In this document: positions 9,433 through 53,407 of the stretch, piece by piece
Numbering within the stretch: the stretch's first letter is position 1
How the letters are laid out: each line of letters starts with the position of its first letter
NCBI GenBank assembly: GCA_051294905.1
Contig: CM119371.1
Coordinates: forward strand, 33,854,001 to 33,918,000
Reading direction: 5' to 3'
DNA from: Botryllus schlosseri
Lineage: Eukaryota
DNA: 64,000 nt
Notes under the pieces: model-generated
What the model was told of the DNA's origin: nothing
Seen by the model: only the letters and a program-made list of their open reading frames with translations
Databases searched by the model: none
Translations under genes and position numbers: made by a program

Positions 9433-11955
9433 AGGCTAATTCACACATGCACGGTTCCCGGCCACGATTTTTGCCGTGCGGTTTTCCATCGCACGGTTAA
9501 CAGGCCGCCTTGCCGCGTACAGGCGGCATGCCGGTATGATGGTACTGCCATGTAGTAATCTGCACTCAGTAGTAGTAATCAGTCGTTTTGTTATGTATGC
9601 TCGCCAGTTGTGGTTATTCTATATTACTATGCGATGAGTGTTTTGCGTCTGGCAACGATATTGCGATCAGGCTGACTCAGTTGCACGTGTTTCTACAGCA
9701 CTCTGTTTTCTGCATACCTGATAAATCACTGCTTGTGATCACAGGGCTGCCTGCTATTCACTTATTCTGGTTCAATGTGTGTGTCTGATTGAAGGACTGC
9801 TACAAGTCATTTCATAACCTTGTTATCCTTGTATATATGTAGTTGACGTTAATTATTTGCATTTGCCATTTTAACCTAGAATTCCATGTCCTGTGTTGTG
9901 ATTATCATGTAGCAAATGAGTACCTAGTTAGTTGATAGAAGCTGGTAATTTATTCCTGCAACACTATTTCATTTTATCAACTAAAATGAGTTCAGATTCA
10001 TATTATATTGATGCATGCATTTTTTCTACATAATGGTGTCTTTTCAATCTTACTACATCTGTTTACAAAAATTTTACTCTATAATCCTTTCCAGTAGTAG
10101 AAAATCAGGCCAGTTGTTGATGACAGCCTACATCAACATCAATTGCTGATGTACTGCAAATGCAAACATCTGGTATGTCCATTTCCATTCATTTCTAATA
10201 TTCATTTTAGTATTACTGCTGTAATTTCATTCAGTGGGGCAAGTGAAAACTCGATGGTCGACTTCGAGGAGCAATTTCTGGGAAAGGGGGAATCATTTAC
10301 TCCTAGTTGAAATGCTGCATTTGCACAAGATATGACGTCATACTAGCAGAAAATGTTTCTCGCATCCAACGCAGAGAATAGATCGTGATAAAGTATAAAT
10401 TTTTAGCTTCTTTGTTGACCATACTCATCTGTGTATCACTGTTGCCAACCTGCCAGATATTGAAAAAGTTTACTACTCTGATAGTTTGATTACTGCAGCA
10501 GGATAAGTTGAAGCAATGATTGGTTGAAGTGAGAACATCAGATATTGTGAATTGTGGTGAATCTTTGCATGAAGTAAAATTCCTTATGGCATATTAAATT
10601 TCAAAGGCATTGCTGTAAAATAACCTTTCAAATGTTTTAATATTGGAATTTATAAACCACTGCCAGAGACAAATGATGTGGAACCAGGTGATGTGTAAAC
10701 TAGCACTGCTACGTCATCTCTTGCATCCACCAACAACAACGCATCATTGAACTCTACAATTGGCAGACAATTACCAGGGAAGAGCGAAGATACTATGATG
10801 ACAGACATTTGATGCAGGTAGGTGTAGATGTGCTGTATGACTTGTCACGCTATGCATGTAACATATAAATTATATCTTATTCAGGGTGACATGATAAAGT
10901 TTCGACAGAAGAGCACTGACCACTTTTCTGCGCCCAAGACTAATATGATCATTTTGCGAACTTTATGGCGGAACAGTTGTGAGTCAACGGAGGCTGTGTG
11001 TGCTGCTGCAATAATGAAGGACATTATGCAAACTTTACAAGTTTATGATCACAAGAACCAGTTGAAAACTTGCACTGTTATTTCATGCATACTGTTTTGT
11101 CTATTATGATTATTACTACATCGATTTAATTGGTACCGTTGTATTGCATCTTATTCTTGTTTTTTCTTCAAATGTATGCATTCTCTATTTGCAGATGTTG
11201 CTTTCAAGTGTAACCATTTCATTTCATTGTTCATCAGTTCTTTGCATAACATGATTGAAGATTCAATTCTGTATTGTAAGACACACTTGATTTCTTGGAA
11301 TGATCAGGAATAGGTGTCTATTTATCCAAGGTGGTCCGAATATTCAGCGTTTCTACTCATACATTCGTATTGCTGTAAAGTTTTACTCGCCTTCAAGTAG
11401 CATTGGCAATTTCAGAGAAATGTGGAAACTACTTCAAGTGTAGGAAATGAAGAAATGAAAGATGATCAAGTAGTTTTAAATAGTAGATTTGGTTGATGGC
11501 TCGAATAGTTTTAGCAGAGGTGGTAACTTTGAAATTGCAGGGTGCATCTTTGTGACTATCGCAAACTGACTTGTGACACTACAAATAGGTGCAAATATTC
11601 CAAAGTGCAAAAAGTAGATTAGTTATGTTGTTGCGTGGAAGTGATATAAAACACAACCTATTGAAAAAGTAGACAAAACCTCTGAGTACTCCTTACTAAC
11701 CACCTGGGCTTTATATAGGCCTGTCATATTTCAATATGTTGGAAATAGGCATAGCAAACTGGAATGGAATCAGGGTGCACCGCTTGCAAACGTGGTTGAT
11801 CGACCGCGGCAGTGTGAATATACGTCCGGTTGGTCGTCGTACGGCTACCGTACAGTGATCGCGTATAATCGCGAGTCGTGAATATGTGAATTAAGTCTTG
11901 CGATACGTGCGTTAGGCGCGAATTTACCGTGCGAACCGGGTATGTGTGTATATTG
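9433..11955. mobile_element. PIF/Harbinger-type non-autonomous element, copy A (lacks the later insertions seen in copy B)
   Basis: Begins with TIR AGGCTAATTCACAC. About 2.5 kb is collinear in reverse complement with 43749-51053 once three insertions there are removed. The right end is degenerate and abuts a hAT element. Confidence 0.75.
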
Positions 11956-43000: not shown

Positions 43001-45217
43001 CCAAAAAAATTGCGCCCCCTGCATGTATCGTCATGTCAAAAAGAGCACATCATCTAATATAGAGATAGGCTATGTTAATCTGTCCATATCCATTCCCGAT
43101 GAACTCCGGACTATTATACTTTTCACAAAGGCCTATTGTACGCACCGAAATCGCGAGTGGTAATGTTATGAGTAGTTGCTGGAATTCCATATTTTCGCGC
43201 AGAGTGAAGCGCATATTTTTTTTAGATTCACGAATGAATACCGTAAGTAATAGTAGCAGTATCATATATTATTGTCAACTATTTCTCCTTTTTCAGCCCA
43301 TGTGATCAGATTCACTGGTAGGGTTCACGAAGGGTGTGCTTTCGAAAATTTAGGGCAAGTTATAAATGATAATGCATCTTTGTGTGGGCCAATTGTTATT
43401 AGTCATGCACTTTGTTGCATGCTGTTATTTCTTGACCCCCGATCAGGATTGACCATCGTATCGGTAGTGAAATTATATTGAAATCACCCAAATGCACCAT
43501 AAAAAAAATTCTTTCATGAGGAGCACACGATTCTGATTCCTGCTCAGATTTAGAAGGGCGCTACTATATTGGAATCGAAAAATTAAGTTATGTTGAATTG
43601 CGTGGAGCGGGAAGAAAATTTCAAGAATAATTAAAATCTCTAAAAAAATTGGGAGTGAATTAGTAATTTCAATTTGCATGTCGACGGATGCTAACACATA
43701 GGCTACTAATTGAATTAGGTGTCGACGGCCGCACAAATTCCCATCTACAGGCGAATTCACACCTAGCCGGTTCCCACGGTAAATTCGCGCGTAACGGACG
43801 AATCGCAAGACTCAATTCACACATTCACGACTCGCGATTACTGTACGGTAGCCGTGCGACGACCATCCGAACGTATATTCACACTGCCGCGGTCGATCAA
43901 CCACGGTTGCAAGCGGTACACCCTGATTCCATTCCAGTTTGCTATGCCTCTTTTCAACATATTGAAATATGACAGGCCAACAACATAACTAATCTACTTT
44001 TTGCACTTTGGAATATTTGCACCTATTTGTAGTGTCACAGGTCAGTTTGCAATAGTCACAAAGATGCACCCTGCAATTTCAAAGTTACCACCTCTGCTAA
44101 AACTATTCGAGCCATCAACCAAATCCACTATTCAAAACTACTTGATCACCTTTCATATCTTCATTTCCTACACTTGAAGTAGTTTCCACATGTCTCTGAA
44201 ATTGCTAATTCTACTTGAAGGCGAGTAAAACTTTACAGCAATACTAATGTATGAGTAGCAACGCTGAATATTCTGACCACATTGGATAAATAGTCACCTA
44301 TTCCTGATCATTCCAAGAAATCAAGTGTGCCTTACAATACAGAATTGAATTTTCAATCATGTTATGCAATAAAATGACGAACAATAAAATGAAATGGTTA
44401 CACTTGAAAGCAACATCTGCAAATACAGAATGCATACATTTGAAGAAAGAAACAAGAATAATATGCAATACAACGGTACCAATTAAATCGATGCAGTAAT
44501 ATTCATAATAGACAAAACAGTATGCATGAAATAACAGTGCTAGTTTTCAACTGGTTCTTGTGATCATAAACTTGGAAAATTTTGCATAATGTCCTTCATT
44601 ATTGCAGCAGCACACACATCCTCCGTTGACTCACAACTGTGCCGCCATTAAGTGCGCAAAATGATCATATTACTCCAGGGTGCAGAAAACTGGTCAGTGC
44701 TCTTCTGTAGAAACTTTATCATCTCACCCTGAATAAGATATAATCTATATGTTACATGCATAGCGTGACAAGTCATACATCACAGCTACACCTACCTGCA
44801 TCAAATGTCTGTCATCATAGTATCTTCGCTCTTCCCTGGTTATTGTCTGCCAATTGTGGAGTTCAATGATGCGTTGTTGGTGGATGCAAGAGATGACGTA
44901 GCAGTGCTAGTTGACACATCAGCTGGTTTCACATCATTTGTCTCTGGCAGTGGTTTCTAAATCCCAATATTAAAACATTTGAAAGCTTATTTTACAGCAA
45001 TGCCTTTGAATTTTACTTCATGCAAAGATTCACCACAATTCGAAATATCTGATGTTGTCACTTCAACCAATCATTGCTTCCAACTTATTCTGCTGCAGTA
45101 ATCAAACTATCAGAGTAGTGAACTTTTTCAATATCTTGCAGGTTGGCAACAGTGATACACAGATGAGTATGGTCAACAAAGAAGCTAAAAATTTGTACTT
45201 TATCACGACCTATTCTC

Positions 45218-47725
45218 CAGTGTTGGGATGACTCGAGTCATGACTTGACTCGAGTCAGACTCGAGTCAACTTTTTCGTATGACTTGACTTGACTCGAGTC
45301 ACGTTGCAAAAATGGCTTGACTTGACTTGACTCGACGCTTCAAAAACGTGGATTGACTCGTGACTCGGAGCAAAATTGACGAGTCAATTTCAAGTCATCA
45401 ATAAGCAAACTGTGTAGACCAGTGGTTCTTAACCTTTTTTCGTCCAGCGCCCCCTTTCAAAAATTATCGTGCTCCAGCGCCCCCCTCAACTTCATATTGT
45501 AAGGAATGTAATAAAGACAATGAGTAAGAGGGAGGGCCGTAACAGCACTTCGTCAACCCCCCTAAAAACGATTGCCTTGCGCACCCATAGTGTGATAAAC
45601 CGAACTTCTGAGGGCTTCGCCCCCACGAACCCCATATCGTGATTTTGATGGTCAGCAAAGTTTGTGTGGCCTGGTCGCCCTAGGTACCAAAATTTGCTAT
45701 AATGCATGGTAATTACATTTATAAGTCGCTATAAACTTTTTATCCTCTCAGCCCACGTAATCAGATTTACCAGTAGCACTGAGTGAGCTGTTGTATAGGA
45801 AAATAAGGGGCACGTAATTAATAATTAAACATATTCGGGTGTTCCCGCAGGTACAATTATTCGTTACCAGGTCCGTAACAGCACTTCGTCAGCCCCCTCC
45901 CCGAACATAAAACGTTGGTCCTGGGCCCCCATCGGGTGATAAACCAAACTTCCGGGGGACCTCGCTCCCAGACCCCCATTAGGCTGTCCGCTATTTGCTG
46001 ATAGCCTATTAGGTATCTACATTGGGTGTACATTTACTGAGGGAGCTATTCTCCCCTAGTCGCGCGAAAAATTTCACTAATTAATGATTGAATTGGTCAA
46101 TATCATCGGGAATTGCATGTAAATTGAGTTCAATTTTTATCCTCTCTCTACTCACGTAAACAAATTTACCGGTAGAGCTGAGTTAGATGCAATGTTCCCT
46201 CTAAGCTGCGCACGTGCGCAGTGCTGACACGGTCTCTGCGCACAGAAAATCTACGTTGCGCACAACAAATCCGGAGTTATTACCTTTTTTTAGTCGTTAC
46301 GCACCGTTGTCCAAGGGTCAGCGCAGTGAGTTGTTGAGTGTGCGCAGACTCATCAAAACTTAAAGCGAACATTGTGAGGTTTCTTGGAAACTGTAGGGCC
46401 CGTTACCAATAATTAAACATATTCGGGCAGGCGAACCCGTTGGTATGACCTCGTTGCATGATGTTATTTCGTGACCCCCTGTCTGCAATATCAAAAAATA
46501 TAGAATCGCTCAACGGGGATATCGCCCAACAGGAATATCCCTGTCGCCCAATCGTACTAAACTAAAAGACGCTCATGATTTCAGATTGGTATTTCTTCAC
46601 TGACATATAATTTTTCTCTGCCAGATGGAATTCGTCTTCTGGGGTTCAGATTTCCAAGACAGGAACATTCGGTGTCAGTCATTTAGGCGCCCATGGACAA
46701 TTAAACCTATATGTATTTTGAAGGCTATATGTAACGAAGTTTTCGGTGTTAATTTGCTCTGAATACTCATTAAGGATATGTCCTATCACCACATCATCTA
46801 CTGCGAAGCCATTTTTCTCCAGCGCCCCCCATACCGCCCCCTGAGCCCAGCGCCCCCCATATCGCCCCCTGAGCGTTTCCGCCCCCCTTCAACATCGCCA
46901 GCGCCCCCTGGGGGGCGCTGCGGGCAAGGTTAAGAACCACTGGTGTAGACTAAATCATTGCATCATGTGTACGTTCGGATTATTCGCGATACGGCGCTGA
47001 CACTTGTGAGAGCAACCAGTCATTCACTCATTGTGCGTTCCACTGGTCCTCCATTGTTACATCACAAATAAATTGACCGCAAACGAAATGATAACGGCTT
47101 ACGTTGTCGTCGTAGTAGTAGTAGAATAATAGAAACGTATCTCTGTTTCTTAGTCGGCTCAGCGCTTACATTGAGCAGTGCGCACTTTTACCAACCCTTC
47201 TCTATGATTTAAATCGAATGAATATAGTTTATGCGTTTATATTCTCACGGATGTGTGTTGTAGATCGGTAGTGTATGTACCATATCAATTTGTTTAAACT
47301 TCTCGAAGCTTCGTATTCGATCCTTCATTTTGGCTGATAGTAACAGACTGTAGCATGTAACTAGTTAATCACGTATTCTATTAGCAAGTTCTACGTGTGC
47401 GCGTGCGATACATCGCCCTTTTCCTTGTATATTTAACTTTATATTCGTTATTTGATTCAAGCTAAATGGCCAATTAATCTCTTTCACGCAGCTGGCAAAA
47501 TGTTATCACTCATACGTCGAAGATTCAATTTGACTTGAATTGTGACTTGACTCATGACTTGACTTGACTTGACTCGACTTGACTCGAGTCACCTCCAAAA
47601 ATCGAGTGACTTGACTTGACTCGAGTCACCTTCGAAAATTGATTGACTTGACTTGACTCGAGTCAAAATCTGCAACGACTCGAGATGACTCGTGACTCGA
47701 AGGTAGTGACTTGATCCCAACACTG
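45218..47725. mobile_element. hAT-like element with GACTTGACTCGAGTC arrays
   Basis: TIRs CAGTGTTGGGAT / ATCCCAACACTG, perfect TSD CTATTCTC. Single-copy empty site in copy A near 10375-10382. Confidence 0.93.
45420..46942. mobile_element. hAT element with AGCGCCCCC repeats, copy 2
   Basis: TIRs CAGTGGTTCTTAACC / GGTTAAGAACCACTG, perfect TSD GTGTAGAC. Contains the CAATGTTCCC MITE at 46190-46374. Confidence 0.93.
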
Positions 47726-47937
47726 CTATTCTCTGCGTTGGATGCAAGAAACATTTTCTTCTGGTATGATGTCCTATCTTGTGCAAATGCAGCATTTCAA
47801 CTAGGAGTAAATGAATGTTTCCCTCTTTCCCAAAAATTGCTCCTCGAAGTCGACCATCGAGTTTTCACTTGCCCCACTGAATGAAATTACAGCAGTAATA
47901 CTAAAATGAATATTAGAAATGAATGGAAATGGACATA

Positions 47938-48901
47938 GGGGAGATGTGGTACCGATGGATCACTGGGACCGAAAATACTTGAAAAATTCTCCATGATAAT
48001 TCCATGATGACACTACGTGAATTTGTCTACAATTAAATGCTGGCAGAATCTTTCCTCACATGCAAAAAAATTCGACCTGCGTAAGTTATGGGGTCTGTGA
48101 CGAATGATTTACGTTTTAGAGGGTATAAAGTAAATTTGGATCGACATTTTCATTTTTCTATATCACCTTTCAGACTAACAAACCCGCCATAATTTTTGAT
48201 GTGAAGTATAGGGCTTGTATCAGGGTATATAATGGCACATATTTTTTGAATCAATACCATCCTCGAGTGGACTATTTTCAAGTCAATTACAATATTTATA
48301 GGGTGGGGGGCCTATGATACCATAGCCTAATCAAGCAAAATAGATGGACCAACTAATCACTTAACAACAGAAACTCGCCTAAATATATATATAGGCTGTA
48401 AATCATAGTCACCTGTGGTGTTTTATCGTTATTACGAGGTATTAGAAAGTCAAAATGTCGATTTGCGGGAAATATGTATGTGGCATTAATTTTGTAAGTT
48501 TAAGCGTAAATGAAAACATGATTTTAGGCCAACATTTGAGTTGATATAATCTATTTTATTCTTGAAGTTCGCGACGAAACATTCCTCATTGGCTTGCTGT
48601 AGCTTAGCTTGTAGTACACAACAAAACAAGTTAACAAATTTGAGTTTTTGAGCGTATGTCTCATAGGTCCCATGGTCGTGTGCCATTGGACCCACCGGGT
48701 GGGGACCGATGACACGTTCGAGCAACAAATTTTAAACGTTCATAAATATTTTTTGAAAAGGCGGATATTCATGTAAATGTTCGCGATAGGTAGAGCTTGT
48801 ATCGAAGTGTTGAGACAGCAAAAGATCCACTATTCTCGGCAGAAGATTTGAGGGCCAGTGATCATTTTGCAATTTTTGATCCATCGGTACCACATCTCCC
48901 C
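47938..48901. mobile_element. TA-targeting DNA element, copy 2
   Basis: Same 25-bp TIRs as 21914-22878. The TA duplication is confirmed by the empty site CTGGTATGTCC near 10170-10180. Confidence 0.93.
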
Positions 48902-49403
48902 TACCAGATATTTGCAGTACATCAGCAATTGATGTTGATGTAGGCTGTCATCATCAACTGGCCTGATTTTTTAGTAGTGGAAAGGATTATAGAGTACAAT
49001 TTCTGTAAACAGATGTAGTAAGATTGGAAAGACACCATTATCTAGTAAAAATGCATGCATCGATATAATATGAATATGAACTCATTTTAGTTGATAGTTG
49101 ATAAAATGAAATAGTGTTGCAGGAATGAATTACCAGCTTCTATCAACTAACTAGGTACTCATTTGCTACATGATAATCACAACACAGGACATGGAATTCT
49201 AGGTTAAAATGTCAAATGCAAATAAAATAATTAACATCAACTGCGTATGTACAAGGATAACAAGGTTATGAAATGACTTGTAGCAGTCCTTAAATCAGAC
49301 CCACACATTAAACCAGAACAAGTGAATAGCAGGCAGCCCTGTGATCACAAGCAGTGATTTATCAGGTATGCAGAAAACAAACTGCTATAGAAACACGTGC
49401 AAC

Positions 49404-50242
49404 TGTGGCAGCCGTGCTCTATACTGCCCCTTACGTCAGTTGTAGTATTATCGCATCGTGCTTTGACTTCCTCTTTTGCCTCTGGCCGCTTCGGCGGACA
49501 GACGTATAATAAAAGCTCTGCAGCAGTTGTTGAATCGTGTGTGATCAACTACAGACGGAGGTCTGCTACAATGGCGAGCACGCTAAAAACGTTACTTCAT
49601 TAATTTGGCTGCAAGTCTGAAGATTCCTGGACAGTAACGGTATGCTGAAAGTTGGCGGAAATTCGATTACGGCATTGGCTATTTGAACCGATTGAAGAAG
49701 CAGTTTTGCATCGATATGAGAAGTTTGAAGACTTGACTGATGGCTTCACTTCGTAATGACTGTTTCACTGGCGGAACTGATGTGAGCGCGCGTGGAGGGG
49801 ATGGAGCTTGTGACTCTCCCGGTCCGATGTCATGAAGAGGGGATGGAGCATGTGACTCTCCCGTTGATGTGGCGCGGCGTTGTTAGGGTTTTAGTTTAGG
49901 GAATTGTTCACTGATGTTAGTTTAGGGTTAGTGTTCTGCTAATGTGATGCGGTCATGCGGATGTTTGCGATTTTGTTGGTGATTTTGAACTTGTCGGTTT
50001 TGATGTTGCTGTTTTTTTTTATTGTAGTTTGTGAGAGTGCTTTTATAGGCACTTCTCGAGTTTGATGGGGAATAGTGTGGCAGCCGTGCTCTATACTGCC
50101 CCTTACGTCAGTTGTAGTATTATCGCATCGTGCTTTGACTTCCTCTTTTGCCTCTGGCCGCTTCGGCGGACAGACGTATAATAAAAGCTCTGCAGCAGTT
50201 GTTGAATCGTGTGTGGTCAACTACAGACGGAGGTCTGCTACA
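49404..50242 (+). mobile_element. Miniature non-autonomous LTR retrotransposon (TRIM-like), 839 bp
   Basis: 167-bp direct repeats 49404-49570 and 50076-50242 (TG...CA, one mismatch), PBS TGGCGAGC at 49572, purine tract GATGGGGAATAG before the 3' LTR, 4-bp TSD CAAC, empty site near 9678-9684. Confidence 0.93.
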
Positions 50243-50544
50243 CAACTGAGTCAGCCTGATCGCAATATCGTTGCCAGATGCAAAACACTCATCGCATAAT
50301 AATATAGAATAACCACAACTGGCGAGCATACATAACAAAACGACTGATTACTACTGCAGATTACTGCATCGCAGTACCATCATACCGGCATGCCGTCTGG
50401 TATGTATCTACACATCCTACCGCTACCGGTAAACTCACCTTCTCATATCACATATTTCTTCGTGCAACCAATATACACCCTGAACACAGCATAGAAGCAC
50501 TCTCCTTCGATAATTATTCAATACATTCAACACGACAAGCTGCT

Positions 50545-51053
50545 AAATCCATAGGAGCACACTTTCGACTGAGCTCACGGCAGCAACGATAGCCACGGAA
50601 AGTTCGTTTGATCCAACCCTCCGTACGGCAGCAAAAAAGCGAAGAAATCAACCGTGCGATAGCCGTGGCGACAGCCGCCGTGAACGAATCGTGCATGTGT
50701 AAACATTTCCACGGCAAGTCGGCCGTACGACCGTACGACCGTACGATGGAAAACCGTACGGCGAAAATCGTGGCCGGGAACCGTGCATGTGTGAATTAGC
50801 CTTTAATTCATAGGAGCACACTTTCGACTGAGCTCACGGCAGCAACGATAGCCACGGAAAGTTCGTTTGATCCAACTTTCCGTACGGCAGCAAAAAAGCG
50901 AAGAAATACACCGTGCGATAGCCGTGGCGACAGCCGCCGTGAACGAATCGTGCATGTGTGAACATTTCCACGGCAAGTCGGCCGTACGACCGTACGATGG
51001 AAAACCGTGCGGCAAAAATCGTGGCCGGGAACCGTGCATGTGTGAATTAGCCT
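50545..51053. repeat. Tandem duplication (about 255 bp x2) of the Harbinger-type terminal segment
   Basis: 50545-50802 and 50806-51053 are near-identical and each ends in GTGTGAATTAGCCT. Confidence 0.85.
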
Positions 51054-53407
51054 TACGGCAGCAGGTTGCACATCCATGATCTAATAGTATACATATGGTA
51101 TGTCTTACGCCAAGTTTGAATCCGTATTCCAGTCTTTAACATTTTTGACAAATTTCCCAAAACTTGTTTGAAAATAGCAAAAAAACATTGGACAGGACAT
51201 CAATTTGTTTCACGGTAGGTTGCACTGTGACTAATCCTAATGCTGGTAGTAACTACAGAGAAAAAGGCGTCGTTCTGTACTGCCATGCTCAATTTGATCC
51301 GTTTTGGAATTGAATTAAATTGTGTTGATATAGGGTAGCTTAATTGAGGGCGAAACCGAGCAACCTATATTGCATCTAAGTCTGTCTTACGCAGTGTAGT
51401 TCGCCAGCTATTAACAACAGCTACCCAGCGCACCAAGCTTTAGGCTACTGCCAAAGCTATGAAGTAATGAATGACTTACACGTGGGAATTCCTTTAAATC
51501 TTCAAAGAATATCAAAAATTTGCTCAAATGAAGTTAAGGGCGACTGCTGGAGTTTGAATTTGGCGAGCTTTCTTGAATACGAATCATCTTCAACAATCGT
51601 CTTCTGAAAATAGTTGCGAAACACATGTTTAGTCAGAATTCATACAGACTTGGTCAATTTCTCGCGTCCCCCAGGCTGAGAACCCCTGATCTTATGTATT
51701 GAAGCAAAAGGTTCCTCATTTGAGGTAGCATGTGTGCCAAACAAATCCAGCAGTGGATGAAAACATCTCTATGCTACGGCTCAAAAATGACATAAACATA
51801 CCAACAGTTTCAACTACTCCGCGGCTGAGTATGTGGTTTCACAGGTCAGTATATAGGTCGACTAATATCCCAAAATAGAACAGAGAATGCGGCGAATGAA
51901 ATATTTCAATCATGAAATCAAAGTCATCTCGGTGGTGTGCACAGTCGTAGATATTCACGGTAAAGAATACTATGTAGTACTGTACCTCCCAGCAAACACA
52001 AAACCGTAAAAGGATCATCCGGGATCATCCCGATTAGGTTCTGATTTTCTAAGTGTCGAGGGAATGTCTAAAATACGTAGTAGGATGGTCTTGTGGTTAT
52101 ATTCAATCAGAATAAATTCATACTCGGTGTTGTTCCATCTCATGCATTAGGCTTCGTTATATCCGGTAGAACCTAACAATGCAAATTTTTTTTCTCTCGC
52201 TGGTATGACTAAAATACGTAGAAAGGATGACTTTGTCGGTACATTCAATCACGATGAATTCCCATCCGGTTTTGTTCGATCTCATGCAGTAGCTTCGTTC
52301 TATCCAATAAAAAACAATGTTCTCCCTTCGTTTTATTGCGTGAGGATGTCACCGGTGTTGTATATTCGTGTTGTTGCTCTAAGGTCGAACAGTTTTGTTT
52401 TCTTCTGATATATATGATCTTCATTATAGATATATTCGCTCTTTCGGTAATCTCGCATGTTCAACGAGTATGGCTAATAGTTTTATTCAGAGAATAACTA
52501 AATAAGTGAGATGTACGTTTAGGAATGTGATTATCGATGCGTGACTTCTTGAATATTTCGGCGATTCAAATTTTACGTCATCGCGCCGGACAAAGATTTG
52601 ACGCGCAACAGGTCGCAGCCAGGCATAGTTCGCTCTTTCTGTATGGTAAATGCCGTAAATATATAGGAATTGTGACTGACTGAGGTAGCGGGTTAAAGGT
52701 ATATACGCAGTAGCATATAGCTTATGGGGTATTTCGAATTGCCTGTAGTATATGACGCCTGGAGCTGTTTGACTTTCTGCAAAACAGGTGTAGACAACTA
52801 TAGAAAAGTTTCAGCTTTTCCAGGCTAGAATTAGAGCTAAACCGTTTTTTCCGAATTATATTACAATTATATTACTGGAATTTCGCTCTAATTTAGTTAA
52901 ATTAGACCACTATAATTATCTAGTTGTCCAAGTCGCTTCAAACATCTGAATTACCGGTACCTATATACCTACGGTATATCATAATATTTATGCTTGAATT
53001 TTCTAGCTATATAAGTCATATAGATACATACCTGTAGAACACTGATTCGTGATTTTATAAAAGTTTGTGCAAGAATGGACATTTTCAACTTGATGTTGAT
53101 TAATGGAGCAAAATTTGATATTTGAGTGCAATTATACCTCGAATCCAGTGACAAGATTATTAATCGTTGAAACCAAACGCAGCTTGTTTATGTTGGCCCA
53201 GAGAATTTGGCTAGCCAGACCATATTGATAGAATATGGTCACAGTAAAATAATATTTTGGGCCAATTTACATGAACTTTCCAACATTTGATTTGATATGT
53301 CCGCTAAAACAGTTGTTATTCTGCTTTCGAATAAGACCTAAATTGCTGATTTCAATGGTAACTGTGTTTGTCAAAGGCTGTAAAGGTAATTCCTTTTCCA
53401 TGTTAGA

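What the first reader, a model, noticed from the sequence alone, without database searches (positions are those of the whole stretch)
49404..50242. Very young miniature LTR retroelement (TRIM-like) with its own empty site in the window
Seen: 167-bp TG...CA LTRs differing at one base, a PBS, a polypurine tract, TSD CAAC and a 505-bp non-coding interior. The paralogous empty site (GTGCAACTGAG, reverse strand near 9680) shows this is an integrase-type insertion. Established: TRIMs are best described in plants with few animal examples; 4-bp TSDs are common in Ty3/gypsy elements; TGGCGAGC is complementary to the 3' end of tRNA-Arg(ACG). Inference: a recently active parasite of a gypsy element, possibly an undescribed family.
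Basis: partly seen in the sequence, partly recalled or inferred. Interest (0 to 1): 0.8.

Follow-up and report, generated by a model that had tools for sequence, protein, structure and literature searches.

The report
Transcribed miniature LTR parasite in tunicate
This is one copy of a young, multi-copy, strongly transcribed family of protein-free miniature retrotransposons (TRIMs) in what is likely a sea-squirt genome; it likely moves by borrowing the proteins of full-size gypsy elements that share its primer site and ends, a known kind of genomic parasite.

Summary
In detail: 167-bp TG..CA LTRs with one mismatch, a 505-bp non-coding interior, TSD CAAC, and an empty site in the window and in 11 other host-repeat copies. 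The element belongs to a dispersed family: about 30 near-full 0.8-kb copies, with 33 resolved TSDs (28 of 4 bp, 5 of 5 bp). The PBS is 12 nt and matches the host's own tRNA-Arg(ACG). Two RNA runs show the family transcribed sense-strand and polyadenylated inside the LTR; in one run it gave about 500-fold more reads per kb than gypsy family A. No coding element carries this LTR, so it is not a fresh deletion. Two gypsy families with young, open-framed copies (A and E) share its PBS, terminal bases and pre-PPT motif, and are the likely helpers. 5-bp TSDs occur in A (9 of 20) but not in E (0 of 19). It meets the published TRIM criteria; the closest precedent is the tapeworm ta-TRIM/lennie pair. 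I found no tunicate TRIM paper in the library, but Repbase could not be searched.

The parts
49400..49403 (+). Left target-site duplication CAAC
49404..49570 (+). 5' LTR, 167 bp. U3 about 49404-49470, R about 49471-49534, U5 to 49570 (borders inferred from family RNA ends)
   Evidence: RNA ends
49471..49471 (+). Likely transcription start (LTR position 68): 46 reads of one run carry an adapter-like loose end before this place, 64 before the matching place 50143
   Evidence: run X23; the adapter was recognised as a template-switch oligo from memory; one run only
49481..49502 (+). Predicted hairpin with a UUCG loop at the start of R; the 12-nt core is exact in 25 of 30 copies
   Evidence: function untested
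49571..49603 (+). 10-codon frame whose ATG is the first base after the LTR and overlaps the PBS, the position of the gag start in gypsy families A and B
49572..49583 (+). Primer-binding site, 12 nt complementary to the 3' end (with CCA) of the host's tRNA-Arg(ACG)
49795..49863 (+). Two 27-bp direct repeats 42 bp apart in the non-coding interior
   Evidence: read
50031..50063 (+). Pre-PPT motif shared with gypsy families E and A and with sister TRIM family D; candidate cis signal
50064..50075 (+). Polypurine tract (10 purines of 12) abutting the 3' LTR
50076..50242 (+). 3' LTR, with AATAAA at 50180-50185 and poly(A) sites equivalent to about 50197 and 50206
   Evidence: poly(A) tails laid at 49525 and 49534 in the identical 5' LTR; read ends at 50206
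50243..50246 (+). Right target-site duplication CAAC
48910..50399 (.). Host: a piece of a multi-copy non-coding repeat (at least 2.5 kb), split by the insertion
9520..10161 (-). Paralogous uninterrupted copy of the host repeat, empty site at 9683-9680

Best explanation
The element is a copy of a dispersed, non-coding TRIM family whose RNA is likely packaged, reverse-transcribed and integrated by the proteins of a co-resident tRNA-Arg-primed Ty3/gypsy family (A and/or E). Shown: the anatomy, the dispersed copies with individual TSDs, the PBS match to host tRNA-Arg(ACG), polyadenylated sense RNA of the family ending in the LTR, and coding gypsy families with the same PBS and similar ends. Inferred: the LTR starts a ~730-nt RNA (R-U5-PBS-interior-PPT-U3-R), probably by Pol II. 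Helper Gag packages it. Helper RT primes on tRNA-Arg at the PBS and on the PPT, and rebuilds both LTRs through the R and PBS strand transfers. Helper integrase recognises the TG..CA ends and makes a 4-bp, sometimes 5-bp, staggered cut. The family is an old independent lineage with many template copies rather than a fresh deletion of A or E.
For: 30 loci fetched, 27 with a TSD (23 of 4 bp, 4 of 5 bp); six more resolved later. LTR pairs: 8 of 27 identical, 17 of 27 with at most one mismatch. PBS to tRNA match. RNA: 6494 reads in X23 and 2899 in X21, nearly all inside the element, with poly(A) tails 12 and 21 nt after AATAAA. Family A: 5.9 kb, several copies with identical LTRs and open gag (~494 aa) and pol (~1297 aa) frames; 9 of 10 first and 12 of 14 last LTR bases match the TRIM, same one-base spacer. 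Family E: 5.7 kb, LTR 157-160 bp, first 10 bases identical to the TRIM in some copies, one copy with identical LTRs and open frames; 3' interior z 6-7. Families B and C share the PBS but score far lower at the 3' junction (24 and 17 against 50 and 56 for A and E). Gypsy domain order RT-RNaseH-integrase was shown for the related element L075 and for relatives of family A pol. Copies differ from each other (terminal branches median 0.017) more than their own LTR pairs do (median 1 of 167), which suggests many templates.
Against: Trans-mobilisation is not observed, only inferred. No coding element shares the whole LTR or the 5'/middle interior. The TRIM's 5-bp share (5 of 33) differs from A's (9 of 20; p=0.025) and is not significantly above E's (0 of 19; p=0.15), so TSDs do not name one helper. 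Family A RNA is scarce in the three RNA runs laid (92, 684 and 287 reads), and E's RNA was not tested. The window copy's private letters are almost absent from the RNA reads (0 of 710 at 50058 in X23; 2 of 175 keep the window letter at 49465 in X21), so this copy itself is not shown to be transcribed. The integrase search scored 150 of 1267 candidates, so a closer helper may be unseen.
Confidence: 0.88

Rival explanations
1. Chimeric two-helper TRIM: the family arose by template switching between an A-type RNA (U5, PBS, leader) and a D/E-type RNA (3' interior, PPT, U3), and is mobilised by both A and E.
For: U3 is closest to sister TRIM family D (z 7.0), whose ends are E-type. U5 positions 127-167 are closest to A (z 4.9 against 0.9 for E), and the spacer and bases after the PBS are A-like. 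The 5-bp TSD share lies between A's and E's. Locus L165 joins an A-like 5' LTR (82%) to a D interior and a D-type 3' LTR.
Against: With wider windows and several copies per family, the U5 scores for A and E are equal (22.7 and 22.3). A and E share terminal motifs anyway, so retention from a common ancestor explains the pattern. TRIM against E+B+C gives only p=0.054. L165 lacks a readable 5' end, so its origin as one integration is untested.
Confidence: 0.2
2. The helper is a gypsy family not examined here (missed, absent from this assembly, or extinct), and A and E are only relatives.
For: Similarity to A and E is limited to short cis regions. The searches are capped, and 10 of the 20 loci gave no LTR pair.
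Against: The exact and the 2-mismatch junction patterns returned only TRIM, A-type, B/C-type or degenerate loci among those fetched. TRIM copies with identical LTRs need a recently working helper, and A and E both have such young copies.
Confidence: 0.15
3. One-off internal deletion of a full-length element, or passive copying by segmental duplication.
For: One old truncated relative was indeed copied passively: eight loci share the same left junction, and seven of them the same or nearly the same right flank.
Against: The young copies have different flanks and individual TSDs and keep one length, mostly 830-850 bp. No coding element with this LTR was found.
Confidence: 0.02

Closest known systems
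ta-TRIM of taeniid tapeworms with its candidate gypsy helper lennie (PMC4558846; passages and section 19 read)
   Same: Small non-coding LTR element, strongly transcribed from LTR to LTR. Helper proposed from shared first LTR bases, PBS and TSD length. TSDs mostly 4 bp with a minority of 5 bp (52 and 5 of 57 there; 28 and 5 of 33 here).
   Different: tRNA-Leu primer there, tRNA-Arg(ACG) here. No intact lennie was found, whereas families A and E here have copies with identical LTRs and open frames. Canonical AATAAA here, absent there. No sequence comparison was made.
Plant TRIMs as defined by Gao et al. 2016 (PMC4717578; passages read)
   Same: Meets the three stated criteria: under 1500 bp, several copies with different TSDs, no retrotransposon protein.
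   Different: Animal host. 4-bp TSDs dominate; the rice insertions cited there have 5 bp.
Helenus, Ajax and Cassandra (TRIMp3; PMC10886601; first sixth of the text and passages read)
   Same: Animal Helenus has 4-bp TSDs and gypsy-type PBSs, including tRNA-Arg in hymenopterans.
   Different: No tRNA- or 5S-derived sequence in this LTR (Rfam). The RNA is polyadenylated after AATAAA, which points to Pol II.
PbTRIM (ant; PMC3532108, listing only) and biv-TRIM (bivalves; PMC6934838, passages read)
   Same: Animal TRIMs under 1 kb with 100-250-bp terminal repeats.
   Different: biv-TRIM has no clear PBS and no autonomous partner found; this family has a clear PBS and candidate partners.

Membership tests
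TRIM | Length under 1000 bp (1500 bp in Gao et al.) with terminal direct repeats of 100-250 bp | tested here: met
   839 bp, 167-bp LTRs; copies 799-885 bp
TRIM | PBS after the 5' LTR and PPT before the 3' LTR | tested here: met
   12-nt match to host tRNA-Arg(ACG); PPT 50064-50075
TRIM | At least two complete copies with different 4-6-bp TSDs | tested here: met
   27 of 30 loci with a TSD; six more
TRIM | No retrotransposon protein coding | tested here: met
   No long frame. Interior against families A, B, C by tblastx: best E 0.17. Gag N-termini against copies: best E 0.011, on the antisense strand.
TRIM | Mobilised in trans by an autonomous LTR element | not testable with these tools
   Inferred from shared PBS, termini and TSDs
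TRIMp3 (Helenus/Ajax/Cassandra) | tRNA- or 5S-derived Pol III promoter in the LTR | tested here: not met
   Rfam scan to E=5 gave only a chance snoRNA hit at E 2.7, outside the LTR
Retrozyme | Hammerhead ribozyme in the LTR | tested here: not met
   No ribozyme family
Ty3/gypsy (helper families) | pol order RT-RNaseH-integrase | tested here: met
   Pfam on the frames of L075; family A pol relatives carry the same families; RT and integrase motif order in family A
Named gypsy clade (for example Cigr-1) | RT tree placement with the clade's reference elements | not tested
   No reference sequences were at hand; PMC6238403 passages only name the clade

The most novel reading that the evidence does not exclude
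A hybrid TRIM built from the cis parts of two gypsy lineages, using both living helpers. Its RNA outnumbers helper RNA by hundreds of times, and its mixed 4/5-bp TSDs record which integrase inserted each copy. It would also be the first TRIM system described in a tunicate.
Probability: 0.2. Interest if true: 0.58.

Novelty: new member of a known kind. Interest (0 to 1): 0.36.

Why it matters
How a TRIM is recognised by its helper is still open (PMC10886601, passage in section 4.2), and the best animal case lacks an intact helper (PMC4558846). This genome holds a young TRIM, two candidate helpers with young open-framed copies that differ in TSD length, sister non-autonomous families, and public RNA data. 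The retained cis parts (LTR ends, PBS, a pre-PPT motif) and the choice of helper can therefore be studied by observation alone. The family is also an abundant non-coding RNA in one run (about 500 reads per million) that TE-blind analyses would misread. The element type itself is well known.

Tried and rejected
Gag remnant in the interior: not supported. Small-RNA promoter or ribozyme in the LTR: none. Families B and C as helpers: same PBS, but weak terminal and 3' similarity and 0 of 11 five-bp TSDs. An apparent 'older subfamily' at 77-85% identity is one truncated insertion multiplied inside another repeat. 5-bp TSDs confined to one TRIM subgroup: no, three changes for three rows on the tree. 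U5 advantage of A over E: seen, lost. Strong global RNA structure: z -2.2 on 20 shuffles, weak. The joint skipping the element in DNA runs X3 and X13 (depth 205 and 391) comes from the many host-repeat copies and is no evidence of an empty allele at this locus. Literature: (tunicate, TRIMs, retrotransposons in miniature) found 0 papers; one search found 2, by their listings not about tunicate TRIMs; one search listed general tunicate papers; one search found 0. Chimeric TRIMs are already described in sugar beet (10.64898/2026.03.01.708851, passages; its supplements are closed). Repbase, Dfam and the Helenus/Ajax supplement were not seen, so prior annotation of this family is not excluded.

Full report
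Observation. The element at 49404-50242 is as described. Two 167-bp LTRs (TG..CA) differ at one base and enclose 505 bp; CAAC lies on both sides. No frame exceeds 93 codons. The flanks match window 10161-9520 (minus) at 92-93% with one CAAC. That flank is a multi-copy repeat: 12 of 12 copies fetched have the single-CAAC site. The insertion is therefore much younger than the spread of its host repeat.

Family. A search of the 495-Mb genome scored 40 of 235 candidates and returned 43 matches, about 30 of them near full length at 87-100%. Of the 30 loci fetched, 23 have a 4-bp TSD, 4 a 5-bp TSD and 3 none; flanks differ. Four further copies (two with insertions, one with an internal deletion, one diverged) and two solo LTRs add five 4-bp and one 5-bp TSD; one truncated solo LTR was left out. 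Total: 28 and 5. Among 27 copies with both LTRs whole (three left out), 8 have identical LTRs and 17 at most one mismatch. Terminal branches in the tree (median 0.017) exceed what the LTR pairs imply, which suggests many template copies rather than one master (inference). Counts are lower bounds.

Primer. A pattern built from the PBS found 13 places. In five loci scanned, ARAGORN called eight tRNA-Arg(ACG) genes and one tRNA-like copy inside a retroelement. The gene end plus CCA pairs with 12 bases at 49572-49583.

RNA. Two raw RNA runs were laid on the window stretch. X23 gave 6494 reads of 12.9 million and X21 2899 of 22.2 million, almost all inside the element. In X21, a single-cell run, reads pile up before the 3' LTR, and poly(A) tails follow LTR positions 122 and 131, 12 and 21 bases after AATAAA; this fixes the sense strand. 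In X23, adapter-like ends sit before LTR position 68 (46 reads at 49471; 64 at 50143, with mixed letters); I recognised the adapter from memory. This gives a likely ~730-nt RNA holding every cis part needed for reverse transcription. The reads come from other copies: the window's private letters are nearly absent (0 of 710 at 50058 in X23). On a family A copy the same runs gave 92 and 684 reads, and a third run 287. That is about 500-fold fewer per kb in X23 and 4-fold fewer reads in X21. Identity cut-offs differed (90 and 88), and the X21 reads on A are mostly LTR variants.

Helper search. The exact LTR-end/PBS junction occurs 78 times. Loci not already known as TRIM were fetched. They hold gypsy family A (5.9 kb, LTR 237-244), family B (6.0 kb, LTR ~248), element C (L075; Pfam RT, RNase H, integrase in gypsy order) and short derivatives. 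An integrase search (150 of 1267 candidates scored) led to 20 more loci, 10 with an LTR pair, among them family E (5.7 kb, LTR 157-160). A and E each have copies with identical LTRs and open gag and pol frames. No coding element carries the TRIM's LTR. A matches 9 of 10 first and 12 of 14 last LTR bases, the spacer base and the 3' half of the LTR (z 5.3-6.6). E matches the first 10 bases in some copies, the LTR size and the 3' interior (z 6.2-7.3). A sister TRIM family D (about 1.0 kb, E-type ends) is the closest match in U3 (z 7.0) and 3' interior (z 8.2). Across several copies the 3' junction scores were D 80, E 56, A 50, B 24, C 17, and U5 scores A 22.7, E 22.3, B 15, D 13, C 11. So the TRIM belongs with the A/E/D group, B and C are poor candidates, and A against E is unresolved.

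TSD fingerprint. I paired left and right flanks by hand. A: 11 of 4 bp and 9 of 5 bp (four unclear pairs and one likely duplicate dropped). E lineage: 19 and 0 (four unclear dropped). B/C: 11 and 0 (two with one mismatch dropped). Fisher tests: TRIM against A p=0.025, against E p=0.15, against E+B+C p=0.054; A against E p=0.001. Five-base duplications occur only in A and the TRIM, but less often in the TRIM. This fits two helpers, or one helper whose cut depends on the element's ends. A similar 4/5 mix is reported for ta-TRIM (PMC4558846, section 19), so it is not unique.

Mechanism. Shown: structure, dispersal, TSDs, primer match, polyadenylated sense RNA, and coding relatives with the same PBS. 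Inferred from established LTR biology: packaging by helper Gag, tRNA-Arg and PPT priming, two strand transfers, integration by helper integrase. Confidence that it is a gypsy-dependent TRIM 0.88. The chimeric two-helper version 0.2 and an unseen helper 0.15 are variants within that reading.

Host group. A cellulose-synthase family search gave one exon over the cut-off, whose frame has QTPQ, TED and QRSRW motifs (motif identity recalled). The abstract start of PMC6523144 says tunicates are the only animals that make cellulose (listing). This supports a tunicate host from a single gene.

Comparison and novelty. The element meets the three TRIM criteria of PMC4717578. It fails the TRIMp3 and retrozyme tests. 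Animal TRIMs are known from hymenopterans, cestodes, bivalves, fish and nemerteans (PMC10886601). The nearest parallel is the massively expressed ta-TRIM. Chimeric TRIMs are described in sugar beet. Searches showed no tunicate TRIM paper; the library is partial and repeat databases were not searchable. The scan's own look-up by sequence found nothing.

Verdict. Real, well supported, a new member of a known kind. Its value lies in the living helpers, the high RNA level and the TSD contrast, which make helper choice testable. Interest 0.36.

Noticed in passing
L082 (G000:C3:23459726-23460524): An E-type short element whose PBS runs on for about 65 bases as an antisense copy of tRNA-Arg, as if RT copied far into its primer; ARAGORN calls it a tRNA.
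   Followed up: partly
L165 (G000:C3:32163383-32164450, minus): A-like 5' LTR (82%) joined to a family D interior and a D-type 3' LTR: a possible inter-family recombinant.
   Followed up: partly
family A, for example L094, L114, L116, L124: One gypsy family makes 4-bp and 5-bp TSDs almost equally (11 and 9), while E, B and C gave only 4 bp (0 of 30 five-bp; p=0.0001).
   Followed up: partly
families A and B, for example L096:806, L109: The gag ATG is the first base after the 5' LTR and overlaps the PBS, so Gag begins MAST.
   Followed up: no
L076, L078, L080, L081; L174, L176, L184; E-type pairs: At least three more non-autonomous families use the same tRNA-Arg PBS: about 1.3-1.4 kb C-like elements with internal tandem arrays, about 1.0 kb family D, and about 1.0-1.35 kb E-type elements.
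   Followed up: partly
L074 (G000:C1:39208070, minus): C-like LTR whose PBS is followed at once by an inverted copy of the PBS and LTR end (fold-back).
   Followed up: no
L061-L067, L118: One old, 5'-truncated TRIM insertion carried in eight copies of another repeat.
   Followed up: yes
window 43755-51054: The host repeat copy is split by several nested insertions besides the TRIM (about 45218-47725, 47936-48905 and near 50400-51054); the window as a whole is almost all repeats, with one frame over 150 codons.
   Followed up: partly
window 49908, 49951-49952, run X21: Nearly half of X21 reads carry variants here; the one checked (49951) is absent from the 30 assembly copies, suggesting a dominant transcribed copy private to that animal.
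   Followed up: partly
G000:C5:5093638-5103020: Cluster of eight tRNA-Arg pattern matches within 10 kb, several confirmed as tRNA-Arg(ACG) genes.
   Followed up: no
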